Below are positions 2,817-14,506 of a stretch of DNA of 24,000 nucleotides, piece by piece. Origin of the DNA: an uncultured Methanosarcinales archaeon (GTDB lineage: Archaea > Nanobdellota > Nanobdellia > Woesearchaeales > GW2011-AR9); contig CAYFMJ010000002.1 of the NCBI GenBank assembly GCA_964344235.1, forward strand, positions 135,496-159,495, in the 5' to 3' direction. A program made the position numbers and the translations under genes. The notes under the pieces were generated by a model. That model saw only the letters and a list, made by a program, of their open reading frames with translations, had not been told where the DNA came from and searched no databases. Within the stretch, counting starts at the first letter, position 1. The number at the start of each line of letters is the position of its first letter.

Positions 2817-4397
2817 ATGTTTGGTAAACTTAAGGATAAGTTAAAAGGGGCGTTGAATGTTTTTTCTAAGAAGACTGAGGAAGAAGCAGTTGATATTCCA
2901 GAAGAAGAGTTAGAGAAGGTAGAAGAAGTTTCTGAAGAAGTACCGGAAGAGAAACCTGAGCCTGTACAGGAAAAAATTCCAACAGCTGAAGATCTTGTTA
3001 AAGAAACAAAAGAGAAGTTTTCTAAACCCAGGAAAGTTGAGAAGAAAAAAGTTATGGCGCAGGATGTGGTGGATGACAAGCCTGCGAAGAAACCAGTGAA
3101 GAATATTCCAAAGGAAATTGAGAAAGAGAAGGTTGTTGAAACGGTTGAGGAAACTGTAAAAGAAGAAGAGCCAGTTATTGAAGAAGCGAAAGAGGAGCCT
3201 GTTGAATCAGAAGAAAAGATTGTTGAAGAGGTAAAGTCTGAGGAGAAAGAAGAGCCTATCACTGAAGAGAAGACCGAGGAACCGAAAGAAGAGTCGTCTG
3301 GGTTTTTTGGAAAAGTAAAATCGTTCTTTGGAAAGAAAGATGAAGAAGTTGAAGAAACAAAAGAAGGTGTTGATAAAGAATTACAGAAAGAATCCACGGA
3401 AGAAAAGCCAGCAGCAGAATCAAAAGAAGTAACGAAATCAGAAGAAACAGCCGAAGAAATCAAAGAAGAAAAAACAGAAGAGCCAGAAGCTGTTGAAGAA
3501 GTAAAAGAGGAAGAACCAGAGAAGAAAGGGTTCTTTGGGAAAGTAAAAGAATCACTAACAACGAAAAAGATTACGGCAGATAAATTTGAGAGTTTATTCT
3601 GGGAGTTAGAAGTTGTATTATTAGAAAATAATGTTTCTGTAGAAGTTATTGAGAAAATTAAAGAGGATTTGAAAGAAGAGTTAGTTGACAAACCACTCCC
3701 ACGAGACGTTCTTGGAAAGATTAACGATACACTACAGAAAACGTTGAATGATATTCTAGAATTTGAAACTGTTGATCTACTCAAAAATATTGAAGCGAAA
3801 GAAGGGCCGTATGTTGTTGCGTTGTTTGGCATTAACGGTGCAGGGAAAACGACTTCAATAGCTAAGTTAACGCATTATCTCAAAGAAAATGGCAAGTCTG
3901 TGGTGTTAGCAGCATGTGATACTTTTAGGGCAGCAGCAATTCAACAATTAGGAGAGCATGCAGAACGATTAGATGTGAAGATGATTAAGCATGATTATGG
4001 TTCTGATTCAGCGGCAGTTGCGTATGATGCAATTAAGTATGCTGAGAAAAATAATGTTGATGTTGTGTTAATTGATACAGCAGGGAGATTGCATAGTAAT
4101 ACAAACTTAATGGCGGAATTGGAGAAGATAATTAGAGTAACGAATCCAGATTTGAAAATTTTTGTTGGCGAATCAATTACAGGAAATGATTGTGTTGAAC
4201 AAGCGAGAAAGTTTAATGAGTTAGTGCAGATGGATGGTGCTATTCTAACGAAAGCAGATGTTGATGAGAAAGGGGGAGCACCTCTTTCAATTTCGTATGT
4301 GATTGGAAAGCCGATTTTATTTCTAGGAGTGGGTCAGGAGTATAAAGATTTAGAGAAATTCGACAAAGAGAAGATGTTAACGAGATTAGGGTTTTAA
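2817..4397 (+). CDS. ftsY: signal recognition particle receptor FtsY with long acidic E/K-rich N-terminal domain
   Basis: SRP-GTPase motifs 'GINGAGKTTSIAKL' (G1), 'DTAGR' (G3) and 'TKADVDEKGG' (G4). I prefer the ATG at 2817 (MFGKLKDKLKG) over the in-frame GTG at 2811 that overlaps the pfdA stop. Confidence 0.9.
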   Translation: MFGKLKDKLKGALNVFSKKTEEEAVDIPEEELEKVEEVSEEVPEEKPEPVQEKIPTAEDLVKETKEKFSKPRKVEKKKVMAQDVVDDKPAKKPVKNIPKEIEKEKVVETVEETVKEEEPVIEEAKEEPVESEEKIVEEVKSEEKEEPITEEKTEEPKEESSGFFGKVKSFFGKKDEEVEETKEGVDKELQKESTEEKPAAESKEVTKSEETAEEIKEEKTEEPEAVEEVKEEEPEKKGFFGKVKESLTTKKITADKFESLFWELEVVLLENNVSVEVIEKIKEDLKEELVDKPLPRDVLGKINDTLQKTLNDILEFETVDLLKNIEAKEGPYVVALFGINGAGKTTSIAKLTHYLKENGKSVVLAACDTFRAAAIQQLGEHAERLDVKMIKHDYGSDSAAVAYDAIKYAEKNNVDVVLIDTAGRLHSNTNLMAELEKIIRVTNPDLKIFVGESITGNDCVEQARKFNELVQMDGAILTKADVDEKGGAPLSISYVIGKPILFLGVGQEYKDLEKFDKEKMLTRLGF

Positions 4398-5749
4398 GCT
4401 GCTTCTTTGAAGAATTGGTCATAGATTTGACTCACAGCTTCATATCCTCGGTCTCTATCTACTGTAAGAACAAGACAGGGGCTGTTAAAACCCTTCTGAT
4501 GAGCTCTCACTTTTATGTTTGCGTCATCTAAGTGTAGAAGTGTGTTTGCGATGTCTCTTTGACTTAGACCCTGGCCAGCTACTACAATGACTCCCACATC
4601 ATCAATAACTCTGACTGCGTCTTCAGGAAGGTACCCTTCATGTCCCCTGCGAACTTGGTCTAGGATTCTGTGCTTAACTCTTGTAACTTCATTAACGCCA
4701 GATAACTCCTCGCGGTCAAAAACAAATGATGTGTCATCAACGCCCGAGAAAGCAAATTGTAGTGACCTGTCTTCTCTTTCTTCATTTTGGTATCTAGCTG
4801 CATCTAACACTCTTCTAACAACTCCTGCACTATCGTTTAAGCCAAAAGCGCTATTGTGATATACAACTAAGTCCTCTCGGTATCCAATCCCAACGACAGG
4901 ATGTCCTGGCTTTGATAATCTATCGCTTACTACATAGGTGCCTTCTTCAGGGAATTGATTTGTTCCTCTTATGTGAACGGGGATTGGTGTTCCTTCTAAT
5001 GGTGTGATTGCTTCTGGGTTGATGATTTCCATTCCGGAATAAGAAAGAATTCTCATCTCTAAACGAGTTATCTCTCTGACTATATCCGTTCCCGCTAATA
5101 TCTTCGGGTGAACGACACGTAGTGGGCCGTCTGTAAAGTTTTCATAAACATCAACATCAAGGCCTCGTGAAATAACTCCGCCGCTTTTGTCTGATCCTCC
5201 GAAAGTGAATGTGGCCAGTTCTCCACCAATTCCTCCATAAAAGCCAGGGAAGACGAGTGTCGCTTTTTCATCTCTTAATCTTGCAAGTCTTTCGTAGGTC
5301 TCTGAGGTTACTCTTGCTTTATCAAAAGAACCCCCCAACACGAGGAATTCAAGTGGGTCGATAAATTGACCGTCAATTTCTTCTGCAAATAATCGTGCTT
5401 GCCATTCTTCTCCGAACGCTTTGAGTGCAGCTAAATACCTCGCTTCTGGAAGTTTACTTTCGAAACGTTCTGTTAAAGACTGTTTAACTCTATCCGCACT
5501 TCCAGGGTAGATTTCTTCATAACGGCCAACGATTTTGTTGATGGTTATTCTCGCTGCAGCACTGTCTGATCTTTCCCCTGCTAATCTAACAAGAAGTTTT
5601 GTGACTCTGATATCGTCATCATAACGGCTCCCAGGTGCGGAGAGAACAACGTATTGAATGCCTCCCTCGCTCATAACCTCTGCAACTTTTAATATTTTTT
5701 TTCTTGTTGCGGTTGAAGTTCCACCGAATTTAGCGAGTTTCCGTGTCAT
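4394..5749 (-). CDS. aspartate kinase-like amino-acid kinase with C-terminal ACT-like domain (diverged)
   Basis: 'KFGGTS', 'VVLSAPGSRYDDD', 'TFGGSDKSG' and 'VYENFTDGP' correspond to the KFGGTS / VVSAPGKR / SRGGSD / YENFTDVDG blocks of the monofunctional aspartokinase class. The C-terminus 'VGVIVVAGQGL...IKVRAHQKGFNSPCLVLTVD' looks like an ACT domain. R is more frequent than K, unlike the core genes. Confidence 0.65.
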   Translation of the reverse strand: MTRKLAKFGGTSTATRKKILKVAEVMSEGGIQYVVLSAPGSRYDDDIRVTKLLVRLAGERSDSAAARITINKIVGRYEEIYPGSADRVKQSLTERFESKLPEARYLAALKAFGEEWQARLFAEEIDGQFIDPLEFLVLGGSFDKARVTSETYERLARLRDEKATLVFPGFYGGIGGELATFTFGGSDKSGGVISRGLDVDVYENFTDGPLRVVHPKILAGTDIVREITRLEMRILSYSGMEIINPEAITPLEGTPIPVHIRGTNQFPEEGTYVVSDRLSKPGHPVVGIGYREDLVVYHNSAFGLNDSAGVVRRVLDAARYQNEEREDRSLQFAFSGVDDTSFVFDREELSGVNEVTRVKHRILDQVRRGHEGYLPEDAVRVIDDVGVIVVAGQGLSQRDIANTLLHLDDANIKVRAHQKGFNSPCLVLTVDRDRGYEAVSQIYDQFFKEAA

Positions 5750-5775: not shown

Positions 5776-6546
5776 TTAAACTTGTTTTCTGTAACGTGGT
5801 TCTGGTTGGTTAGTGGCTGTTTTCTGAGCTTCGAATCTTTCGTATGCATCTCCAAGCCAAAGGATTAATTCCACTCCCATTGGTGCTCTGGAATCAACTC
5901 CGTATGTTGCTTGAAGATATTCGAAGCAGTCTTGGCTTGGTTTCTTGAATACGGGACAACCTCTTGCTTTACCGTGACCAAGTCTCTTGGCAACTTCCAT
6001 GTCTAAGCCTTTTGGCGAATCCCTATCAATTAAATCTATGTCAACAGGGTCCATATATGTTGGGCCTTCCATAACTCCAATAGCAGCTTTTGTTGCTCCG
6101 AGATGAGACAAACTTACATGTCCAAGGGTGGCTGTGGCCGTTAGATATTTTCTGGGTTCGCGAGCGTAGGTTTCTTTGAGTTTTAATGCCACTCTAACTG
6201 CAGTGAGGAGCCCTTTTTCCCCTATTGTTCTCAAAGTTGGAAACCCATGGGGAACTGCAACACGGCAATATGGGGAGGTTCGTACAACCAAGTCTACTTC
6301 TCGTATTTTTTTATCAACGTATGTGGCGTGGTCTTGTTTGGTTATGAATTTCCACCAGGTCTGCACCATAGATGCTTCTAAAATTTCTCTTAGGCTTGTT
6401 CTGCTTTCTTTTGGAATTGGTTCCTGGCCGTTAACTGCAAGTTTATGTTCTTCCCACCAAATTCTAAATACATCGGTTAAACCTTGTTCATATGCTCTAA
6501 ACCCAGCGGTTTGTTGTGTTGCGATGCTTGCATCGATTGAACCCAT
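5776..6546 (-). CDS. hypothetical protein (256 aa), first gene of a two-gene unit with the aspartokinase-like gene
   Basis: Intact ORF with a leaderless-type TATA 25 nt upstream and a 26-nt spacer to the downstream gene. No family recognised. Contains two HxS/Tx tetrapeptides (HATY at residue 73, HVSL at residue 143), which is only a weak cue. Confidence 0.5.
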   Translation of the reverse strand: MGSIDASIATQQTAGFRAYEQGLTDVFRIWWEEHKLAVNGQEPIPKESRTSLREILEASMVQTWWKFITKQDHATYVDKKIREVDLVVRTSPYCRVAVPHGFPTLRTIGEKGLLTAVRVALKLKETYAREPRKYLTATATLGHVSLSHLGATKAAIGVMEGPTYMDPVDIDLIDRDSPKGLDMEVAKRLGHGKARGCPVFKKPSQDCFEYLQATYGVDSRAPMGVELILWLGDAYERFEAQKTATNQPEPRYRKQV

Positions 6547-6567
6547 TTTTGCTTCAAATTGGCTTCT

Positions 6568-6575
6568 ATTTAAAT
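6568..6575 (-). promoter_or_regulatory. TATA box (minus strand reads atttaaat) for the 256-aa gene
   Basis: Centre is about 25 nt upstream of the minus-strand ATG at 6546. Confidence 0.5.
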
Positions 6576-6619
6576 CACTATTGGTTAGTGGTGGCCGTAT
6601 TCTCTATTTTTAGAAAATC

Positions 6620-6627
6620 TTTAAATA
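6620..6627 (+). promoter_or_regulatory. TATA box (tttaaata) of the orphaned methylthiotransferase 5' stub
   Basis: Centre is about 25 nt upstream of the ATG at 6649, the same geometry as functional promoters in this window. Confidence 0.5.
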
Positions 6628-6648
6628 TACACTCTTTAGCAAGCCATT

Positions 6649-6744
6649 ATGACATCATTTTATATCCATACGTATGGTTGCTCAGCGAATGTGGCGGACT
6701 CTGAACAGATGAAGACCCACTCCCCACCGGTCAAGTCCGGATAA
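6649..6744 (+). pseudogene. 5' stub of an MiaB/MtaB-family methylthiotransferase gene (21 homologous codons, then 10 unrelated codons and a stop)
   Basis: It translates to MTSFYIHTYGCSANVADSEQM-KTHSPPVKSG*. The first 21 residues parallel MTNVYFFTQGCSANVADSEQM of the intact gene at 7735, and GCSANVADSEQM is identical. The GC..N..DSE.M block is the conserved N-terminal motif of this family. Confidence 0.65.
6676..6711 (+). repeat. left copy of the 36-nt imperfect direct repeat (codons 10-21 of the methylthiotransferase)
   Basis: 'ggttgctcagcgaatgtggcggactctgaacagatg' versus 'ggatgtagtgctaatgttgctgactcagaacagatg'. That is 27/36 nt identical and 16/17 over the last 17 nt, with the differences mostly synonymous. 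Confidence 0.8.
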
Positions 6745-6746
6745 AG

Positions 6747-6754
6747 TATATAAA
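6747..6754 (+). promoter_or_regulatory. TATA box (tatataaa) for the homing-endonuclease / methylthiotransferase transcript
   Basis: AT-rich TATA-like octamer about 22 nt upstream of the in-frame TTG at 6773 and about 43 nt upstream of the ATG at 6794. Confidence 0.45.
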
Positions 6755-6793
6755 CAATTTCTTAGAATATTTTTGTTCATCAAAGGGGTTGAG

Positions 6794-7738
6794 ATGAACA
6801 AAAAATATCACTTCGAAATTGAACAAATTCTTGAGCTAGCAGATTTGTATGAGCTGGGAGTTCCTTTGAGAACCATTGCAAAAATTCATGGAATGAACTC
6901 TGCTACTCTTTGGCATAGACTCAAAAAGTATGAAGAACAAGAATTATTTCAGTTTAGGTCACGCTCTGAAACAGTCTTAATGACCTTGTCGAAGAGTAGA
7001 ACTAGCCCAAAAGGAGAAAAAACCAAGCGAGTTAAGGATTGGTTTAAGAATTTTGGAAGAGAAGGGATACTAGATATTCTTACTGTGTTTCTTCTTGTTG
7101 AAGCCTCAGCTGATTATAAGTATGGAATGATAAGACTGACTAATTCTGATGAAACACTACTTCAAATATTTACAGACATACTCTTATTACTTAACTTGGA
7201 ACCAAGACAAACAATCGATTCGAGAAATAATTTGCGAGTTGTTTTTAGTAGGAATTCTAGAACTCGGAAAGTGTTAGATGAAATTTATGTAAGAACTCCC
7301 ACTACCAAACACCAACCACGGAGGGGCACCGAAAATTGGGAAATGTATTTGAAGACAACGCAACCCAATTTGCTTTGGTTGTATGGTCGATCGAGAAAAT
7401 TAATTGAACTGTGTTTTCGAATCGCAATGTCCTGTGATGGTTCCGTTTTTAGGAGCAGGGGTATTAAGCATCTCCCCGATAGACCACAATTAACCCTAGT
7501 CTGTTTTCATCCGCTATTACTTTTACAATGGAAAGAGATAGCTAGCCTAATTGGACTCAACATGAATATCTCGGGGAAAAGAATTCGATCCAGGAGTATC
7601 GAAACTTCACGCAAATTTTTAAAAATGGGTGCCTTTTTAGAAGGTGTGAGGATATCCTCCAAAGGATCAAAACAATTTCGGGGAATAGAGAAAAATACCC
7701 GGTTGAATGATTTATTGAATACATATGATTTAAGATGA
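6794..7738 (+). CDS. LAGLIDADG-family homing endonuclease-like protein with N-terminal HTH; first motif degenerate
   Basis: The HTH is 'ILELADLYELGVPLRTIAKIHGMNSATLWHRLKKY'. 'LTVFLLVEASADYKYGMIRLTNSDETLLQIFTDIL' aligns with 'LIAHLIGDGCAYK...NIKYDITDPELLQQFVDDL' of the clear LAGLIDADG ORF at 12596-13336. The second motif is 'CFRIAMSCDGSV'. An alternative start is the TTG at 6773. The stop overlaps the next gene's start (ATGA). Confidence 0.65.
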   Translation: MNKKYHFEIEQILELADLYELGVPLRTIAKIHGMNSATLWHRLKKYEEQELFQFRSRSETVLMTLSKSRTSPKGEKTKRVKDWFKNFGREGILDILTVFLLVEASADYKYGMIRLTNSDETLLQIFTDILLLLNLEPRQTIDSRNNLRVVFSRNSRTRKVLDEIYVRTPTTKHQPRRGTENWEMYLKTTQPNLLWLYGRSRKLIELCFRIAMSCDGSVFRSRGIKHLPDRPQLTLVCFHPLLLLQWKEIASLIGLNMNISGKRIRSRSIETSRKFLKMGAFLEGVRISSKGSKQFRGIEKNTRLNDLLNTYDLR

Positions 7739-9015
7739 CAAATGTATATTTTTTTACACAGGGATGTAGTGCTAATGTTGCTGACTCAGAACAGATGGCA
7801 GGATTACTGGAGCAAGCTAAATTTAGCATAGTTAACAGAATTCAAGAAGCACATGTTATTGTTATGAATTCGTGTTCAGTTAAATCACCTTCTGAATCTA
7901 TGTTTTTCAAAACTTTGGAACAATTTAAGCAAGAACATCCGCATAAATTAATTGTGGTGGCTGGATGTATCCCAGAGGCTGATCCACGGAAGTTTAAAGA
8001 GTATTCAGTTGTTGGTACACAAAGCATTCATCATATCGTGCAGGTAGTGGAAGAAACACTGAATGATAATGTTTTACAGATTCTAGGAAATGAAGAAGTG
8101 CCACCATTGGATATGCCGAAAGTGCGAAAGAATCCTGTTGTAGAAATTATTCCAATTAATAGAGGTTGTTTGGGAGCATGTACATTTTGTAAAACGAAAC
8201 AAGCACGGGGGAATTTGATCTCTTACTCTGTTGATGAAATAGTTGATGTTGCTCAAAAAGCGTTATCAGAAGGAGTGAAAGAGATTTGGTTAACTTCACA
8301 GGATACATTTTGTTACGGTTTTGATATTGGGACAGATATTGTGGAGTTGCTCAATGAGTTGGTTAAGTTAGATGGTGATTTCTTTATTCGTGTGGGAATG
8401 GGTAACCCAGATCATATGCCGAAAGTGCAGGAGGGGTTAATTGAGGTGTATAAACATCCGAAGATTTTCAAGTTTTTGCATTTACCATTACAAGCAGGTC
8501 ATAATTATACTCTGCAGCAGATGCGTCGGAGGTATACAGTGCAGCAATTTAGAGATACAGTCGATGCATTTAGGAAAGCGATTCCTGAAATTAATTTGAT
8601 GACTGATATTATTGTGGGGTATCCAACAGAAAATGAAGATCATTTCTGGGGAACGTTGCAAGCTGTTAGACGAGTAACGCCAGATTCAATTAATATTTCA
8701 CGGTTCTGGCCACGGCCAGGTACGCCTGCTGCTGAATTAAAACCGTTAGATGGTGGAGAGGTAAAGAAACGATCAACAGTGATAACAGATATTTTTCATA
8801 ATATATCTACCCTGCAAAATGAACGATGGAAAGGTTGGGAAGGTTCTGTGTTAATTGATGAGAAAGGAAAGGATGGTCAATGGATTGGTCGGAATTATTG
8901 TTATAAACCAGTGATTGTTGAAGGGGATTTTAATTTAGGTGATTCAGTTAAAGTTCGGATTGTGAAAACTGGATTATTTGATTTACGGGGGGAAGTAGTG
9001 AATGGTACAGCGTGA
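7735..9015 (+). CDS. mtaB: archaeal-type (MtaB/CDKAL1-like) radical-SAM tRNA methylthiotransferase
   Basis: N-terminal MTTase domain cysteines (GCSANVADSE, NSCSVK, VAGCIPE), radical-SAM 'CLGACTFC' (CxxxCxxC) and a C-terminal TRAM-like segment 'GSVLIDEKG...VKVRIVKTGLFDLRGEVV'. Confidence 0.85.
   Translation: MTNVYFFTQGCSANVADSEQMAGLLEQAKFSIVNRIQEAHVIVMNSCSVKSPSESMFFKTLEQFKQEHPHKLIVVAGCIPEADPRKFKEYSVVGTQSIHHIVQVVEETLNDNVLQILGNEEVPPLDMPKVRKNPVVEIIPINRGCLGACTFCKTKQARGNLISYSVDEIVDVAQKALSEGVKEIWLTSQDTFCYGFDIGTDIVELLNELVKLDGDFFIRVGMGNPDHMPKVQEGLIEVYKHPKIFKFLHLPLQAGHNYTLQQMRRRYTVQQFRDTVDAFRKAIPEINLMTDIIVGYPTENEDHFWGTLQAVRRVTPDSINISRFWPRPGTPAAELKPLDGGEVKKRSTVITDIFHNISTLQNERWKGWEGSVLIDEKGKDGQWIGRNYCYKPVIVEGDFNLGDSVKVRIVKTGLFDLRGEVVNGTA
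7762..7797 (+). repeat. right copy of the 36-nt imperfect direct repeat (inside the intact gene)
   Basis: See the left copy. Homology ends at the same codon (Met21). Confidence 0.8.
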
Positions 9016-9056: not shown

Positions 9057-9353
9057 GTGTTGAGAACTCTTTCAACAAGGAAAGCTAAATGGGGTTTTGC
9101 TCTTACAACTATGGTTGCTGCATTTTATGTAGGAGATTCAAATCCAGATGTTGTTTCATTACCTCAAAATGCTTGGGAATATTTGCTTGCTGGCGTTCCT
9201 GCCGTTGGTACTGTGATTTCGTCTGGACTTGTAAATGGTCGCTATGCTTCACGCCAGGATTTTGAAACAATGTTTTCGGAAGGTCTTGCAAAAGGAACGA
9301 AATTAGCAGTTTTTAGTGCAATGCTTGGTTATGCCGCTGGATCTTTCTTCTAA
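9057..9353 (+). CDS. small hypothetical membrane protein (98 aa, GTG start)
   Basis: The ORF fills the gap between two genes and has two or three hydrophobic stretches. The non-ATG start and absence of any motif keep confidence low. Confidence 0.35.
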   Translation: MLRTLSTRKAKWGFALTTMVAAFYVGDSNPDVVSLPQNAWEYLLAGVPAVGTVISSGLVNGRYASRQDFETMFSEGLAKGTKLAVFSAMLGYAAGSFF

Positions 9354-9395: not shown

Positions 9396-11141
9396 ATGAA
9401 TGCAAAAGAGTTACGGGAGAAGTATTTTAATTTCTTTAAGGAGAAAGGACATGCTATTATTCCCTCAGCATCATTAATTCCAATGAATGATGCGTCAGTA
9501 TTATTCAACACAGCAGGAATGCAACCACTTGTTCCGTATTTGATGGGAAATGTTCATCCTGCCGGCAAAAGATTAGTTAATTTACAGAAATGTTTACGAA
9601 CGGTTGACTTTGAAAATATTGGAGATAATACGCACCATACGTTTTTCCAGATGTTAGGGAATTGGTCACTAGGGGATTATTTTAAGAAAGATACGATCGC
9701 CTGGAGTTTTGAATTCTTAACAGAAGTGTTGCAATTACCCTTAAACATGCTGGCGTTTACTGTGTATAAAGGTGATGACGTTGTGCCTGCGGATGAGGAA
9801 GCGGCACAGTTCTGGGAAGCGCATGGAGTTCCTAGAAAAAGAATTGCATTTTTAGGGAAAGATAACTTCTGGTCGGCTGGTGAGACGGGTCCATGTGGTC
9901 CATCAACAGAGATGTTTTATTGGACGGGTAAAGGAGAAGCGCCAGAGGAGTTTGATGCAGAGGATGAGCAGTGGGTGGAGATTTGGAATGATGTATTTAT
10001 GACGTATAATCGGGATGACAAGGGTAATCTGTCTCCATTACAACAAAAGAACGTCGATACAGGAATGGGTTTTGAAAGGGCATTAGCAGTGTTGAATGGG
10101 AAAGAGAGTGCATATGAAACGTCGTTATTTGCTGGTGCGATTCTCAAGTTAACAGAGTTAAGTGGAAGAAACTATGCGGACTGCAAGAAAGAGATGCGCA
10201 TTGTTGTTGACCATTTACGAGCAGCAGTGTTTGTGTTAGGTGATGAGAATGGTGTTGTGCCGTCAAATGTTGATAGGGGATATATTTTACGACGATTGAT
10301 TCGAAGAGCGATTCGGTTTGCCAAACAGATTGGTATTGATGAAATGTTCACTGCTGAGATTAGCAAGATCTTCATTGCAGAGTATGGTGAGTATTATACG
10401 GAGTTAGAGAAGAATAAAGAAAAGATTATTGGTGAGTTACAGAAAGAGGAACAGAAATTTGCATTGACGTTAGAGAAGGGATTGCGTGTGTTTGAGAAGT
10501 TAGCTGCGCAAGCAGATGTTATTTCTGGAAAAGATGCGTTCTTATTATTCCAATCATATGGTTTTCCATTAGAGATGACGCAGGAGTTAGCAATGGAACA
10601 GGGAATTAGTGTTGATGAAGCTGTGTTTAAAGAAGAATATGAAAAACACCAGGGCTTATCTCGAACAGCATCTGCAGGGAAGTTTAAAGGCGGCTTAGCA
10701 GATAATTCCCCTGAAACAACTCGGTTACATACAGCTACTCACTTATTGGCTGAGGCGTTACGAAGAGTGTTAGGTTCTGAGGTTAAGCAGCGAGGTTCGA
10801 ATATTACGCCTGAAAGACTGCGGTTTGATTTTACATTTGATAGAAAGTTAACGCCGGAAGAGATTAAAGCAGTTGAAGATGAAGTGAATAAAGTTATTGA
10901 TTCTCATGTTGAAGTTAGGCGAGTAGAGATGACGAAAGAGGAAGCAGTGAGGTTAGGTGCACAAATGGAGTTCGGTGCAAAGTATCCAGACAGAGTGAGC
11001 GTCTATTTTGTTGGTGAGTATTCTAAAGAATTTTGTGGTGGACCGCACGTAAAGAATACGTCTGAGATTGGACATTTTAAAATTGTGAAAGAGAAAAGTT
11101 CTTCTGGTGGTGTGAGACGGATTAAGGCTGTTTTGGAGTAA
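9396..11141 (+). CDS. alaS: alanyl-tRNA synthetase, bacterial-type catalytic and editing domains, short form lacking the C-terminal C-Ala region
   Basis: 'LFNTAGMQPLVPY', 'QKCLRTVDFENIGDNTHHTFFQMLGNWSLGDYFK' (class II AlaRS core), and editing-domain 'HTATHLL' (HxxxH) and 'CGGPHV' (CxxxH). The protein ends about 35 aa after CGGPHV, at 581 aa in total. Confidence 0.85.
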   Translation: MNAKELREKYFNFFKEKGHAIIPSASLIPMNDASVLFNTAGMQPLVPYLMGNVHPAGKRLVNLQKCLRTVDFENIGDNTHHTFFQMLGNWSLGDYFKKDTIAWSFEFLTEVLQLPLNMLAFTVYKGDDVVPADEEAAQFWEAHGVPRKRIAFLGKDNFWSAGETGPCGPSTEMFYWTGKGEAPEEFDAEDEQWVEIWNDVFMTYNRDDKGNLSPLQQKNVDTGMGFERALAVLNGKESAYETSLFAGAILKLTELSGRNYADCKKEMRIVVDHLRAAVFVLGDENGVVPSNVDRGYILRRLIRRAIRFAKQIGIDEMFTAEISKIFIAEYGEYYTELEKNKEKIIGELQKEEQKFALTLEKGLRVFEKLAAQADVISGKDAFLLFQSYGFPLEMTQELAMEQGISVDEAVFKEEYEKHQGLSRTASAGKFKGGLADNSPETTRLHTATHLLAEALRRVLGSEVKQRGSNITPERLRFDFTFDRKLTPEEIKAVEDEVNKVIDSHVEVRRVEMTKEEAVRLGAQMEFGAKYPDRVSVYFVGEYSKEFCGGPHVKNTSEIGHFKIVKEKSSSGGVRRIKAVLE

Positions 11142-14389: not shown

Positions 14390-14506
14390 GGGCCGGTAGC
14401 TTAGCTTGGTAGAGCGCCTGACTTTTAGCAAAAAACAGGAGTTTTTTGAAACTTCCTGCCGAAAGTAATCAGGCGGTCGCGAGTTCAAATCTCGTCCGGC
14501 CCACCA
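14390..14506 (+). tRNA. tRNA-Lys(UUU) with one 40-nt intron at 37/38 and an encoded CCA
   Basis: Acceptor GGGCCGG/CCGGCCC, D arm GCTT-AGCTTGGTA-GAGC, anticodon stem CCTGA/TCAGG, spliced loop CTTTTAA, variable CGGTC, T arm GCGAG-TTCAAAT-CTCGT, A73, CCA at 14504-14506. Confidence 0.9.
14428..14467 (+). other. tRNA-Lys intron (40 nt, 37/38)
   Basis: BHB fold: central CTTT/AAAG, bulges TA|G and TA|A, internal helix CAGGA/TCCTG. Confidence 0.75.

What the first reader, a model, noticed from the sequence alone, without database searches (positions are those of the whole stretch)
6616..7800. Homing-endonuclease cassette separates a promoter-bearing 21-codon stub of a tRNA methylthiotransferase gene from the intact gene, which carries a diverged copy of the same 21 codons
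Two things are directly visible. 6649-6711 encodes MTSFYIHTYGCSANVADSEQM behind a correctly spaced TATA (6620-6627). 7735-7797 encodes MTNVYFFTQGCSANVADSEQM as the true N-terminus of a complete radical-SAM MTTase. The two copies agree 12/12 in amino acids over GCSANVADSEQM but only 27/36 in nucleotides, with mostly synonymous differences. The last 17 nt (GACTCNGAACAGATG region) match 16/17. Homology stops at exactly the same codon in both copies. The stub then runs into unrelated C-rich sequence and a stop. Between the copies lies a LAGLIDADG-type ORF with its own TATA, and its stop codon overlaps the MTTase start (ATGA). My inference is that a free-standing HEG invaded the 5' end of an essential-type gene by intron-less homing or gene conversion. 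The cassette would carry, or co-convert, a heterologous replacement 5' end, so the host gene stays intact and now depends on HEG transcription and translation. This resembles how integrative elements carry a replacement tRNA 3' end, but here it involves a protein-coding 5' end and a LAGLIDADG enzyme. I am not aware of this being described for archaea.
Basis: partly seen in the sequence, partly recalled or inferred. Interest (0 to 1): 0.78.

Follow-up and report, generated by a model that had tools for sequence, protein, structure and literature searches.

The report
Homing endonuclease with replacement gene start
A selfish DNA-cutting-enzyme gene sits inside the front end of a tRNA-modification gene in a tiny (DPANN) archaeon; it keeps that gene working by bringing a substitute front end, leaving the original 21 codons as a dead stub, which mirrors a trick so far described mainly in fungal mitochondria.

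Summary
Window 6649-6711 and 7735-7797 are two diverged copies of the first 21 codons of an archaeal-type ms2t6A methylthiotransferase gene (TIGR01578). Between them lies a 314-aa ORF that is a two-domain LAGLIDADG protein with an N-terminal HTH (AF2 pLDDT 94; best PDB folds I-OnuI, I-Tsp061I).

The same layout, stub then HEG then intact MTTase with stop/start overlap, recurs in 8 independent DPANN lineages. A stub is recognisable in 7 of them. None of 40 HEG-free orthologous loci has a stub or a HEG remnant.

The window stub sits behind the native promoter and resembles the 5' ends of the host's own clade (53/63 nt to L007). The 5' end in use is an outlier to that clade. The nine differences in codons 10-21 are all synonymous, so the two copies evolved as working genes in separate lineages.

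No BHB or ribozyme intron signal was found.

Best reading: a free-standing LAGLIDADG homing endonuclease cassette that carries or co-converts a replacement 5' end.

It is the 5'-end, archaeal mirror image of fungal mitochondrial "mORF" gene hybrids (Allomyces atp6, Glomus), so it is a new variant of a known kind. Cleavage activity and current mobility are untested.

The parts
6620..6627 (+). TATA box (TTTAAATA) of the native MTTase promoter, now driving the stub
   Evidence: Sequence. HEG-free orthologues have a TATA at the same distance (about 25-32 nt) before their ATG. This implies a leaderless or near-leaderless transcript (inference).
6649..6711 (+). Stub: native codons 1-21 of the MTTase gene (MTSFYIHTYGCSANVADSEQM). 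The frame runs on to a stop at 6742-6744.
   Evidence: It matches the 5' end of HEG-free L007 at 53/63 nt and 19/21 aa. Its mean identity to the host clade is 46.3/63, against a within-clade mean of 48.3.
6717..6763 (+). Conserved left end of the cassette. It includes the palindrome CCGGTCAAGTCCGG (6727-6740) and the HEG TATA TATATAAA (6747-6754).
   Evidence: Homologous to L002 3014-3061 (score 34 against null 13.5 +/- 2.4, 0/500). In L002 the palindrome arms change as CTGG...TCAG. A role as promoter or operator is inferred, not tested.
6794..7738 (+). Free-standing HTH + double-LAGLIDADG homing-endonuclease-like gene (314 aa). Motif 1 is LLVEASADY (E103); motif 2 is MSCDGSV (D215).
   Evidence: GGGG lies 8-11 nt before the ATG. 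The stop TGA at 7736-7738 overlaps the MTTase ATG.
7735..7797 (+). Replacement (cassette-associated) codons 1-21 of the MTTase (MTNVYFFTQGCSANVADSEQM)
   Evidence: Mean identity to the host clade's 5' ends is only 38.6/63 nt. The residue type MT-x-[VI]-[YH]-F-[FIV]-T is shared with the 5' ends in use in the other HEG-bearing loci. The right-hand limit of the foreign tract was not determined.
7735..9015 (+). Intact archaeal/eukaryotic-type tRNA ms2t6A methylthiotransferase gene (426 aa)
   Evidence: Pfam UPF0004 + Radical_SAM + TRAM. TIGR01578 at 419.4 bits, cut-off 314.7. The body is 75% identical to HEG-free L013 and 70% to L007.

Best explanation
A free-standing LAGLIDADG homing endonuclease gene (HEG) has inserted into the conserved 5' end of the ms2t6A methylthiotransferase gene of a DPANN (Woesearchaeota/Nanoarchaeota-like) archaeon. 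The junction follows codon 21.

The inserted unit consists of:
- a conserved left end with its own TATA box;
- the HEG;
- overlapping the HEG stop codon (ATGA), a substitute start codon and 5' coding segment for the MTTase.

The host gene therefore stays whole. The original promoter plus codons 1-21 are left upstream as a stub.

Proposed mechanism (inferred):
1. The enzyme cuts HEG-free alleles within the conserved GCSANxADSEQM-coding DNA.
2. The break is repaired from a HEG-bearing allele. The donor's stub serves as the left homology arm and the gene body as the right arm.
3. This copies HEG plus replacement 5' end into the recipient and turns the recipient's own 5' end into the new stub.
4. 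Sequence differences in the carried 5' end would protect the HEG-bearing allele from being cut again.
5. MTTase translation is now coupled to HEG translation.

Shown here: the anatomy, the LAGLIDADG fold, recurrence in 8 lineages, strict co-occurrence of stub and HEG, native affinity of the stub and foreign affinity of the 5' end in use.

Inferred: cleavage activity, target site, current mobility, expression coupling.
For: Anatomy.

The two copies diverged under purifying selection. Nine of 9 differences in codons 10-21 are synonymous, and 0/200,000 random sets keep the peptide.

LAGLIDADG fold with acidic residues kept at the ends of both motif helices (E103, D215).

The same stub-HEG-MTTase order, with stop/start overlap or a gap of 5 nt or less, occurs in independent assemblies from different samples: L001, L002-4, L005/L053, L006, L047-49/L054, L050, L055. 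The stub sequences and break points differ between them.

None of 40 species-representative orthologous loci has the HEG, a HEG remnant or a stub.

HEG-bearing genes are scattered in the MTTase tree. The window is sister to HEG-free L013 (75%), and L002 is sister to HEG-free L016 (74%).

The stub is clade-like (53/63 nt to L007; mean 46.3 against a within-clade 48.3). The 5' end in use is an outlier (mean 38.6).

The upstream prefoldin-FtsY synteny places the stub at the ancestral gene start.

A mechanistic precedent with demonstrated endonuclease-driven mobility exists in fungal mitochondria (PMC3630166).
Against: No HEG-free allele of the same species was found, and no near-identical HEG copy elsewhere. 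Recent mobility is therefore not shown.

HEG pairwise identities (42-65%) roughly track MTTase identities (38-65%). This fits long vertical co-inheritance with many losses as well as it fits transfer among relatives.

The closest HEG-free relative, L013, also has the 'foreign' type of 5' end. This needs an extra assumption: a past invasion followed by HEG loss, or conversion of the 5' end without HEG transfer.

The 21-codon comparison is short.

If the target spans the codon 21/22 junction, the intact copy regenerates it. Immunity then has to rest on untested sequence differences.

One HEG-bearing lineage (L055) shows no recognisable stub.
Confidence: 0.72

Rival explanations
1. Domesticated LAGLIDADG/HTH protein. 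An ancient HEG insertion became a resident, WhiA-like DNA-binding regulator or first gene of an operon co-expressed with the MTTase. The stub is just the scar of that old event and nothing is mobile today.
For: HEG divergence parallels MTTase divergence. WhiA structures are among the best fold matches. The protein has an N-terminal HTH, and some relatives have an extra C-terminal winged HTH. Stop/start coupling is tight in every lineage. No copies were found on viral contigs.
Against: The distribution is sporadic: absent from 40 of 40 species representatives, including the sister lineages of two HEG-bearing genes. Both catalytic acidic positions are kept across the family (D/E at 103, D215-G216 nearly invariant or invariant), unlike WhiA. 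The stubs are still readable and carry mostly synonymous differences, which is unexpected for a very old neutral scar. Truncated homologues exist in the protein library (P0009, P0010, P0017, P0122), as expected of a gain-decay-loss cycle, although contig ends could also explain them.
Confidence: 0.18
2. An intron. Either an archaeal bulge-helix-bulge intron or a group I intron carries the LAGLIDADG ORF, and splicing joins codon 21 of the stub to codon 22 of the gene.
For: Archaeal rRNA introns do carry LAGLIDADG genes (I-Tsp061I is a top fold match). Homology of the two copies ends at the same codon.
Against: The best hBHBh' candidate (11/12) equals the mode of shuffled controls and does not lie at the codon 21/22 junctions. 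No Rfam family matches at E<=1 in 6300-8100. The downstream gene has its own ATG and a complete, conserved N-terminus, so splicing is unnecessary. Stubs in other lineages end at different codons (13 to about 26) and some are frameshifted.
Confidence: 0.02
3. The duplication was made by another process, with the HEG as a bystander. Candidates are a target-site duplication of a transposon, integrase-mediated integration with an att site in the gene's 5' end, a local tandem duplication, or an assembly chimera.
For: Integrative elements that carry a replacement gene end are well known (general knowledge: tRNA 3' ends; icd with e14 and phage 21). In L047, 3.4 kb of other genes, including a reverse transcriptase, lie between stub and HEG.
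Against: The 1.09-kb interval in the window encodes only the LAGLIDADG protein, with no integrase or transposase. The repeats are 67% identical with purely synonymous change in the conserved part, which is incompatible with a duplication made in situ. The architecture recurs in independent assemblies from at least 8 samples or lineages. The stub is present only where the HEG is present.
Confidence: 0.05

Closest known systems
Fungal mitochondrial mobile endonuclease ORFs (mORFs) that create gene hybrids: Allomyces macrogynus atp6; Glomus sp. atp6, atp9, cox2, nad3; Rhizopus atp9; Mortierella cox2 (PMC3630166, read)
   Same: A free-standing LAGLIDADG (or GIY-YIG) endonuclease ORF is inserted in a conserved gene. 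It carries a diverged duplicate of the displaced gene end, which becomes the functional end. The native end persists next to it as an unused remnant. The native remnant groups with close relatives and the carried copy does not. Differences in the conserved part are largely synonymous.
   Different: In the fungal cases it is the 3' (C-terminal) end of organellar genes, with the ORF often fused in frame. Here it is the 5' end of a chromosomal gene in DPANN archaea. The element must therefore also supply transcription and translation initiation: its own TATA, and an ATGA stop/start overlap. The native promoter is stranded on the stub. The endonuclease belongs to a separate HTH-LAGLIDADG family.
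Free-standing homing endonucleases of T4-like phages and intronless homing (SegB, SegF, SegG, MobE; PMC2790892, PMC2330249, PMC2988022 listed; details from general knowledge)
   Same: The HEG is not in an intron or intein. It is presumed to spread by double-strand-break repair with co-conversion of flanking markers. The HEG-bearing allele is presumed to be protected by sequence polymorphism.
   Different: Phage HEGs sit between genes, or split genes into two expressed pieces. They do not leave a stub or carry a duplicate gene end. They belong to other nuclease families (GIY-YIG, HNH).
Archaeal intron- and intein-encoded LAGLIDADG endonucleases (I-Tsp061I, I-DmoI, PI-PfuI)
   Same: Same fold and the same two-motif monomer architecture. 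PDB sequence-profile hits to PI-PfuI and I-Tsp061I and a fold hit to I-Tsp061I. Archaeal host, with a highly conserved target gene region.
   Different: Those preserve host gene function by RNA or protein splicing. Here no splicing element is detectable and function is preserved by a replacement 5' end.
'Fractured genes': free-standing HEG between split-intein gene halves (PMC2677866, listed, not read in detail)
   Same: A free-standing HEG is lodged inside a conserved gene, and the gene's function is rescued by an accessory device.
   Different: Rescue there is by trans protein splicing of two gene halves. Here a single intact gene is restored by a duplicated 5' end.
Integrase-driven integrative elements that carry a replacement gene end (tRNA 3' ends; icd with e14 and phage 21; general knowledge)
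   Same: Insertion inside a gene is rendered harmless because the element brings a copy of the displaced end, leaving a partial duplicate.
   Different: Those use site-specific recombinases and near-identical att repeats, usually at 3' ends. No recombinase is present here and the repeats are only 67% identical.

Membership tests
LAGLIDADG homing endonuclease superfamily | Two alpha-beta-beta-alpha-beta-beta-alpha core domains, each headed by a LAGLIDADG helix | tested here: met
   AF2 with a 67-sequence alignment: pLDDT 94.4, pTM 0.88. Elements: H79-102, E105-107, E112-117, H120-132, E138-142, E147-153, H155-167; and H201-215, E216-221, E230-236, H240-252, E258-260, E263-266, H269-277. Top Foldseek PDB hits are I-OnuI, I-Tsp061I (TM 0.66 on the target), WhiA, I-LtrI and I-AniI.
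LAGLIDADG homing endonuclease superfamily | Sequence-profile membership | tested here: inconclusive
   The window protein alone is below the Pfam cut-off (PF14528: E 0.002, 18.8 bits against 22.5). However, 45/67 family members match PF14528 (best 1.4e-11), and the family profile hits PI-PfuI 1dq3 (E 9.4e-4) and I-Tsp061I 2dch (E 0.05).
LAGLIDADG homing endonuclease superfamily | Acidic catalytic residue at the C-terminal end of each LAGLIDADG helix | tested here: met
   E103 (D in most relatives) lies at the end of helix 79-102. D215-G216 lies at the end of helix 201-215. D/E103 is nearly invariant and G216 is invariant across the 67 sequences. The catalytic role is inferred from position only.
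LAGLIDADG homing endonuclease superfamily | Site-specific cleavage of a long target in the HEG-free allele | not testable with these tools
   Needs purified protein and substrates.
Free-standing HEG / intronless homing | The HEG is not embedded in a self-splicing intron or an intein | tested here: met
   No BHB motif above the shuffle null. No Rfam hit at E<=1. The ORF is separate, with its own TATA and start.
Free-standing HEG / intronless homing | Sporadic distribution among orthologous loci, incongruent with host phylogeny | tested here: inconclusive
   The distribution is sporadic: 0/40 species representatives, and HEG-free sisters of two HEG-bearing genes. But HEG and MTTase divergences are of similar size, so many losses are not excluded.
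Free-standing HEG / intronless homing | Co-conversion of flanking host sequence from the donor | tested here: inconclusive
   The 5' end in use is an outlier to the host clade (38.6/63 against 48.3/63). Residues 22-110 show no clade affinity. The region is short and variable, and no donor was identified.
mORF-type gene hybrid (Allomyces atp6 type) | Endonuclease ORF plus a carried duplicate of the displaced gene end that serves as the functional end | tested here: met
   The mirror orientation applies here (5' end).
mORF-type gene hybrid (Allomyces atp6 type) | The native displaced end is retained as a remnant and groups with close relatives, while the carried copy is divergent | tested here: met
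   Stub: 53/63 nt and 19/21 aa to L007. Copy in use: 41/63. Caveat: the sister lineage L013 also has the divergent type.
mORF-type gene hybrid (Allomyces atp6 type) | Organellar (fungal mitochondrial) gene, with replacement of the 3'/C-terminal end | tested here: not met
   The context is archaeal and chromosomal: FtsY, prefoldin, AlaRS, an intron-containing tRNA. The related loci are Woesearchaeota/Nanoarchaeota MAGs. It is the 5' end that is replaced.
Archaeal BHB intron or group I intron carrying a HEG | Splicing motif at both boundaries (hBHBh' or ribozyme core), and an exon 2 that lacks its own start | tested here: not met
   The downstream gene starts with its own ATG and has the full conserved N-terminus.
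WhiA-like domesticated LAGLIDADG regulators | Loss of catalytic acidic residues, a C-terminal HTH, and uniform presence across a lineage | tested here: not met
   The acidic residues are retained. The HTH is N-terminal. Presence is sporadic. The fold similarity to WhiA is the generic LAGLIDADG similarity.
Integrase-mediated integrative element with a replacement gene end | Encoded tyrosine or serine recombinase and near-identical att direct repeats | tested here: not met
   The HEG is the only gene in 6712-7734. The repeats are 42/63 identical.

The most novel reading that the evidence does not exclude
The window shows one member of a DPANN-wide family of HTH-LAGLIDADG homing endonucleases that specialise in invading the 5' ends of conserved housekeeping genes without any intron or intein. 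These would include the ms2t6A MTTase in at least 8 lineages, and possibly ThrRS and an Endo_dU-family gene. Each member would bring a promoter plus a translationally coupled replacement start and 5' segment, so that it takes over expression of the host gene. The stub-to-HEG interval could even carry cargo, such as the RT-16 RNA and reverse-transcriptase module seen in L047. This would be a third general way, besides RNA and protein splicing, for a homing endonuclease to live inside an important gene in cellular chromosomes.
Probability: 0.4. Interest if true: 0.72.

Novelty: new variant of a known kind. Interest (0 to 1): 0.6.

Why it matters
Homing endonucleases are thought to survive inside important genes mainly by hiding in self-splicing introns or inteins. 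This locus, with its seven relatives, shows a splicing-independent solution in archaeal chromosomes. The element replaces the gene's 5' end and places the host gene's expression behind its own.

That has four consequences:
- It extends a mechanism known from fungal mitochondrial 3' ends to 5' ends and to DPANN archaea.
- It predicts chimeric 5' ends, and possibly footprints of this kind in HEG-free genes such as L013, which could mislead phylogenies and annotation.
- It defines an uncharacterised HTH-LAGLIDADG family (228 representative proteins at E<=1e-3) with a predictable natural target, which is of interest as a source of meganuclease scaffolds.
- It gives a directly testable case: cleavage of the GCSANxADSEQM-coding DNA.

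Tried and rejected
- **BHB intron.** I enumerated all hBHBh' pairings between 6680-6750 and 7700-7810. The best score was 11/12, against shuffled controls whose best scores were mostly 10-11. The best site was AT-rich and off the junction. Rejected.
- **Group I/II intron or other RNA family.** Rfam gathering scan on the whole window, and an E<=1 scan on 6300-8100, found nothing in the region.
- **tRNA-like origin of the post-stub sequence.** ARAGORN and Rfam give nothing there.
- **PDB by sequence with the shallow 5-sequence profile.** No hits. The first AF2 run with 5 sequences was too poor to use (pLDDT 57). Both were solved with the 67-sequence alignment.
- **NCBIfam and PADLOC for the HEG.** No family.
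- **HEG-free allele of the same species, or a closer HEG donor.** Only relatives at 75% (MTTase) or 62% (HEG) identity or less were found.
- **Viral contigs.** No relatives.
- **Right-hand end of the foreign tract.** Region-wise identities for residues 22-110 show no clear affinity, so the limit is unresolved.
- **Contexts of more distant family members.** P0013, P0014, P0015 and P0058 lie on contigs that are too short or in unrelated contexts.
- **In-situ duplication or target-site duplication.** Rejected on the synonymous-only divergence.


Full report
**1. What is in the sequence**

The region reads as the first-stage reader described.
- A TATA box, TTTAAATA (6620-6627), lies 29 nt before ATG 6649.
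- Codons 1-21 (6649-6711) encode MTSFYIHTYGCSANVADSEQM. The frame then runs into KTHSPPVKSG and stops at 6742-6744.
- A second TATA, TATATAAA (6747-6754), and a GGGG tract precede ATG 6794 of a 314-codon ORF.
- That ORF's TGA (7736-7738) overlaps ATG 7735 of a 426-codon gene, whose product begins MTNVYFFTQGCSANVADSEQM.

The 426-aa protein is a complete archaeal/eukaryotic-type tRNA ms2t6A methylthiotransferase. It has UPF0004, Radical_SAM and TRAM domains and matches TIGR01578 at 419 bits against a cut-off of 315.

The two 63-nt copies compare as follows:
- 42/63 nt identical overall.
- 27/36 nt and 12/12 residues identical over GCSANVADSEQM.
- 7/33 nt identical just after codon 21.

The repeat is not chance. 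The local alignment scores 45 against 21.0 +/- 3.9 for shuffles, and 0 of 500 shuffles reach it.

All nine differences in codons 10-21 are synonymous, including a TCA/AGT serine switch. In a simulation, none of 200,000 sets of nine random substitutions preserved the peptide. The two copies therefore spent most of their divergence as working genes in different lineages. They are not the product of a duplication made on the spot.

**2. The ORF between the copies**

On its own the ORF only grazes Pfam: LAGLIDADG_3 at E 0.002 (below the cut-off) and HTH_23 at 0.0044.

The word-indexed protein search found just four other clusters, 58-62% identical. A full HMMER search of cluster representatives found 228 proteins at E<=1e-3.

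For an alignment of 67 of these:
- 45 match PF14528 individually, the best at 1.4e-11.
- The profile hits the PI-PfuI and I-Tsp061I endonucleases in the PDB.
- AlphaFold2 gives a confident model, pLDDT 94.4 and pTM 0.88. It has an N-terminal three-helix HTH and two alpha-beta-beta-alpha-beta-beta-alpha domains.
- The best structural neighbours are I-OnuI, I-Tsp061I, WhiA, I-LtrI, I-AniI and PI-SceI.

An acidic residue closes each LAGLIDADG helix: E103 (D in most relatives) and D215-G216. These positions are nearly invariant or invariant across the family. The protein therefore looks like a potentially active monomeric LAGLIDADG enzyme, not a WhiA-like dead one.

**3. The arrangement recurs**

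Every homologue whose context could be read lies directly upstream of an MTTase orthologue, with the stop overlapping or within 5 nt of the MTTase start. The loci are L001, L002-4, L005/L053 and L006 (58-62% HEG identity). The more distant 414-420-aa relatives in L047-49/L054, L050 and L055 (42-44% identity) show the same.

Seven of these eight lineages have an upstream stub of the MTTase 5' end:
- MTSVYFFTQGCSA| in L002
- MTKVYFETAGCSHNFADSEQMAGLLK| in L005/L053
- ..KIYFETAGCSANQADSEQMA| in L001
- MTKIYLKTWGCSLNKADGEL| in L006
- MKICLETYGCTTNQVDSNII* in L050
- MKVFIKTFGCQANYADSEVLAGILTTYK* in L047
- the window's own stub

Only L055 shows none. The stubs differ from the copy in use in their own locus, and they end at different codons (13 to about 26).

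In L047 the stub lies 3.4 kb upstream of the HEG. Between them are two unknown ORFs, an RT-16 RNA and a reverse transcriptase.

Window 6717-6763 aligns with L002 3014-3061 (score 34 against 13.5 +/- 2.4; 0/500). It includes a palindrome (CCGGTCAAGTCCGG in the window, CTGGACAAGTTCAG in L002) just upstream of the HEG TATA.

**4. HEG-free alleles and who is native**

A scan of one genome per species returned 40 orthologous loci, all from Woesearchaeota, Nanoarchaeota or other DPANN-labelled MAGs.
- None encodes the HEG.
- None has a HEG remnant at E<=1 apart from two negligible hits.
- None has a second copy of the N-terminal motif.
- They read straight through ...GA(A/G)CAGATG|GCNGG....

HEG-bearing genes are scattered in the MTTase tree. 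The window gene is sister to HEG-free L013 (75% over the body) and close to L007-L012 (about 70%). L002 is sister to HEG-free L016 (74%).

Upstream synteny (prefoldin, FtsY) is shared with many loci and places the stub at the ancestral gene start. Its TATA-to-ATG spacing matches that of HEG-free alleles.

The stub behaves as a member of the host clade. It is 53/63 nt and 19/21 aa identical to L007. Its mean identity to the clade is 46.3/63, against 48.3/63 within the clade.

The 5' end in use is an outlier, with a mean of 38.6/63. It shares the pattern MT-x-[VI]-[YH]-F-[FIV]-T with the 5' ends in use in the other HEG-bearing loci.

This is what is expected if the element brought a foreign 5' end and displaced the native one.

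**5. Caveats from the same data**

HEG pairwise identities (42-65%) are about as low as MTTase identities between the same loci (38-65%). The association is therefore old. Vertical descent with many losses cannot be separated from transfer among relatives.

HEG-free L013 also carries the outlier 5' type, and its residues 22-60 are 74% identical to those of HEG-bearing L001. I read this as a possible footprint: either invasion followed by loss, or conversion of the 5' end from a donor's intact copy without HEG transfer. It is an added assumption, not a demonstrated fact.

Residues 22-110 of the window protein show no clade affinity, unlike residues 111-372. The foreign tract may therefore extend well beyond codon 21, but the region is generally variable and I could not fix the boundary.

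**6. Alternatives**

- *BHB intron.* Not supported. The best hBHBh' candidate scores 11/12, which is what shuffled sequence gives, and it is off the junctions.
- *Ribozyme intron.* Not supported by Rfam, even at E<=1.
- *Need for splicing.* None, because the downstream gene has its own start and a complete N-terminus.
- *Recombinase.* No integrase or transposase is present in the 1.09-kb interval.
- *Assembly artefact.* Excluded by recurrence in independent samples.
- *Domestication.* This remains the main rival (about 0.18). The sporadic distribution, the retained catalytic residues and the well-preserved stubs argue against it.

**7. Mechanism proposed**

Steps marked (shown) rest on the results above; steps marked (inferred) do not.
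1. The enzyme recognises the strongly conserved DNA encoding GCSANxADSEQM in HEG-free alleles (inferred; typical target choice of homing endonucleases).
2. The break is repaired from a HEG-bearing allele. The donor stub pairs with the recipient's promoter-proximal end, and the gene body pairs with the other end (inferred).
3. The cassette's left end, the HEG and the replacement 5' end are copied in. The recipient's own first codons become the new stub (anatomy shown; process inferred).
4. Differences in the carried 5' end protect the new allele from being cut (inferred).
5. The MTTase is then translated by coupling to the HEG, through the ATGA overlap here and equivalent overlaps in the other lineages. 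Transcription comes from the HEG promoter, from read-through from the stranded native promoter, or from both (inferred).

**8. Comparison with what is known**

The closest precedent is the set of mobile endonuclease ORFs of fungal mitochondria. These insert into atp6, atp9, cox2 or nad3 together with a foreign C-terminal segment and leave the native C-terminus downstream as a remnant. They were first described for Allomyces macrogynus atp6. In Glomus, the native remnant is 91% identical to that of a relative, while the carried copy is 63.5% identical to the native remnant, with synonymous differences (PMC3630166).

The present case is the mirror image. It involves a 5' end, a chromosomal gene of DPANN archaea and an HTH-LAGLIDADG family of its own. 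It also has an added requirement: the element must supply the initiation signals.

Full-text searches for such an arrangement in archaea or DPANN found nothing. This does not prove that it is undescribed.

I therefore class it as a new variant of a known kind.

Related family members abut other genes. One overlaps the start of ThrRS in L059, with a weak candidate stub (p about 0.02). Another overlaps the start of an Endo_dU-family gene in L056, with no stub. These hint that invasion of 5' ends may be the general habit of the family. That wider reading is the novel case (probability about 0.4).

**9. Verdict**

Confidence is 0.72 that this is a LAGLIDADG HEG insertion with a replacement 5' end. 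Current activity and mobility are untested. Interest is 0.6.

Noticed in passing
window 14390-14503 (+): A tRNA gene with an intron of about 40 nt in the anticodon loop. Rfam RF00005 scores it at 58.4 bits, but ARAGORN missed it. The anticodon region CUUUUAG suggests tRNA-Lys(UUU). It marks the contig as archaeal.
   Followed up: partly
L047 482-5245 (GCA_018819765.1, JAHJPP010000010.1): Here the MTTase stub (482-568) is separated from the HEG (4001-5245) by 3.4 kb. The interval holds two unknown ORFs, an RT-16 RNA (RF03019, 2248-2413, 77.7 bits) and an RVT_1+HTH_40 reverse transcriptase with PADLOC RT/DRT-like hits. This is either cargo or a nested insertion inside the cassette.
   Followed up: partly
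L059 554-613 and 807-1847: A more distant family member (P0019, 346 aa) overlaps the TTG start of a ThrRS gene (TTGA). A decayed look-alike of the ThrRS first codons (MRILQ...) sits right after the upstream gene. The support is weak: 10 of 500 shuffles reach the alignment score.
   Followed up: partly
L056 3001-4682: Another family member (P0011, 372 aa) overlaps the start of an Endo_dU-family gene, next to Cdc6/Orc1 and a DNA polymerase small subunit. No stub was detected.
   Followed up: partly
window 6717-6763; L002 3014-3061: The conserved left end of the cassette has a palindrome (6727-6740) whose arms co-vary between the two loci, immediately upstream of the HEG TATA. It could be an operator, a BRE-proximal element or an RNA hairpin. 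L005/L053 has a similar 4-bp stem with a 6-nt loop (GAGGTTAATTCCTC) at the same place.
   Followed up: partly
L013 3971-5086 (CAZRHO010000079.1): This is the HEG-free sister of the window's MTTase. It carries the 'foreign' type of 5' end (mean 39.3/63 nt to its own clade), and its residues 22-60 are 74% identical to those of HEG-bearing L001. It may be a footprint of a past invasion or of conversion without HEG transfer.
   Followed up: partly
proteins P0009, P0010, P0017, P0122: These are truncated homologues of the HEG (46-193 aa). P0122 is the closest known relative of the window protein's N-terminus. They may be decaying copies or contig-end fragments.
   Followed up: no
window 9396-11141 (+): The alanyl-tRNA synthetase gene encodes only 581 aa (catalytic core plus second additional domain), which is short for an AlaRS. 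The same short form follows the MTTase in L002, L016 and L021.
   Followed up: no
window 5776-6546 (-) and 9057-9353 (+): The ORFs flanking the locus (256 aa and 98 aa) have no Pfam, NCBIfam or PADLOC match and no counterpart in any of the related loci. The intervals between FtsY and the MTTase, and between the MTTase and AlaRS, vary between lineages.
   Followed up: partly
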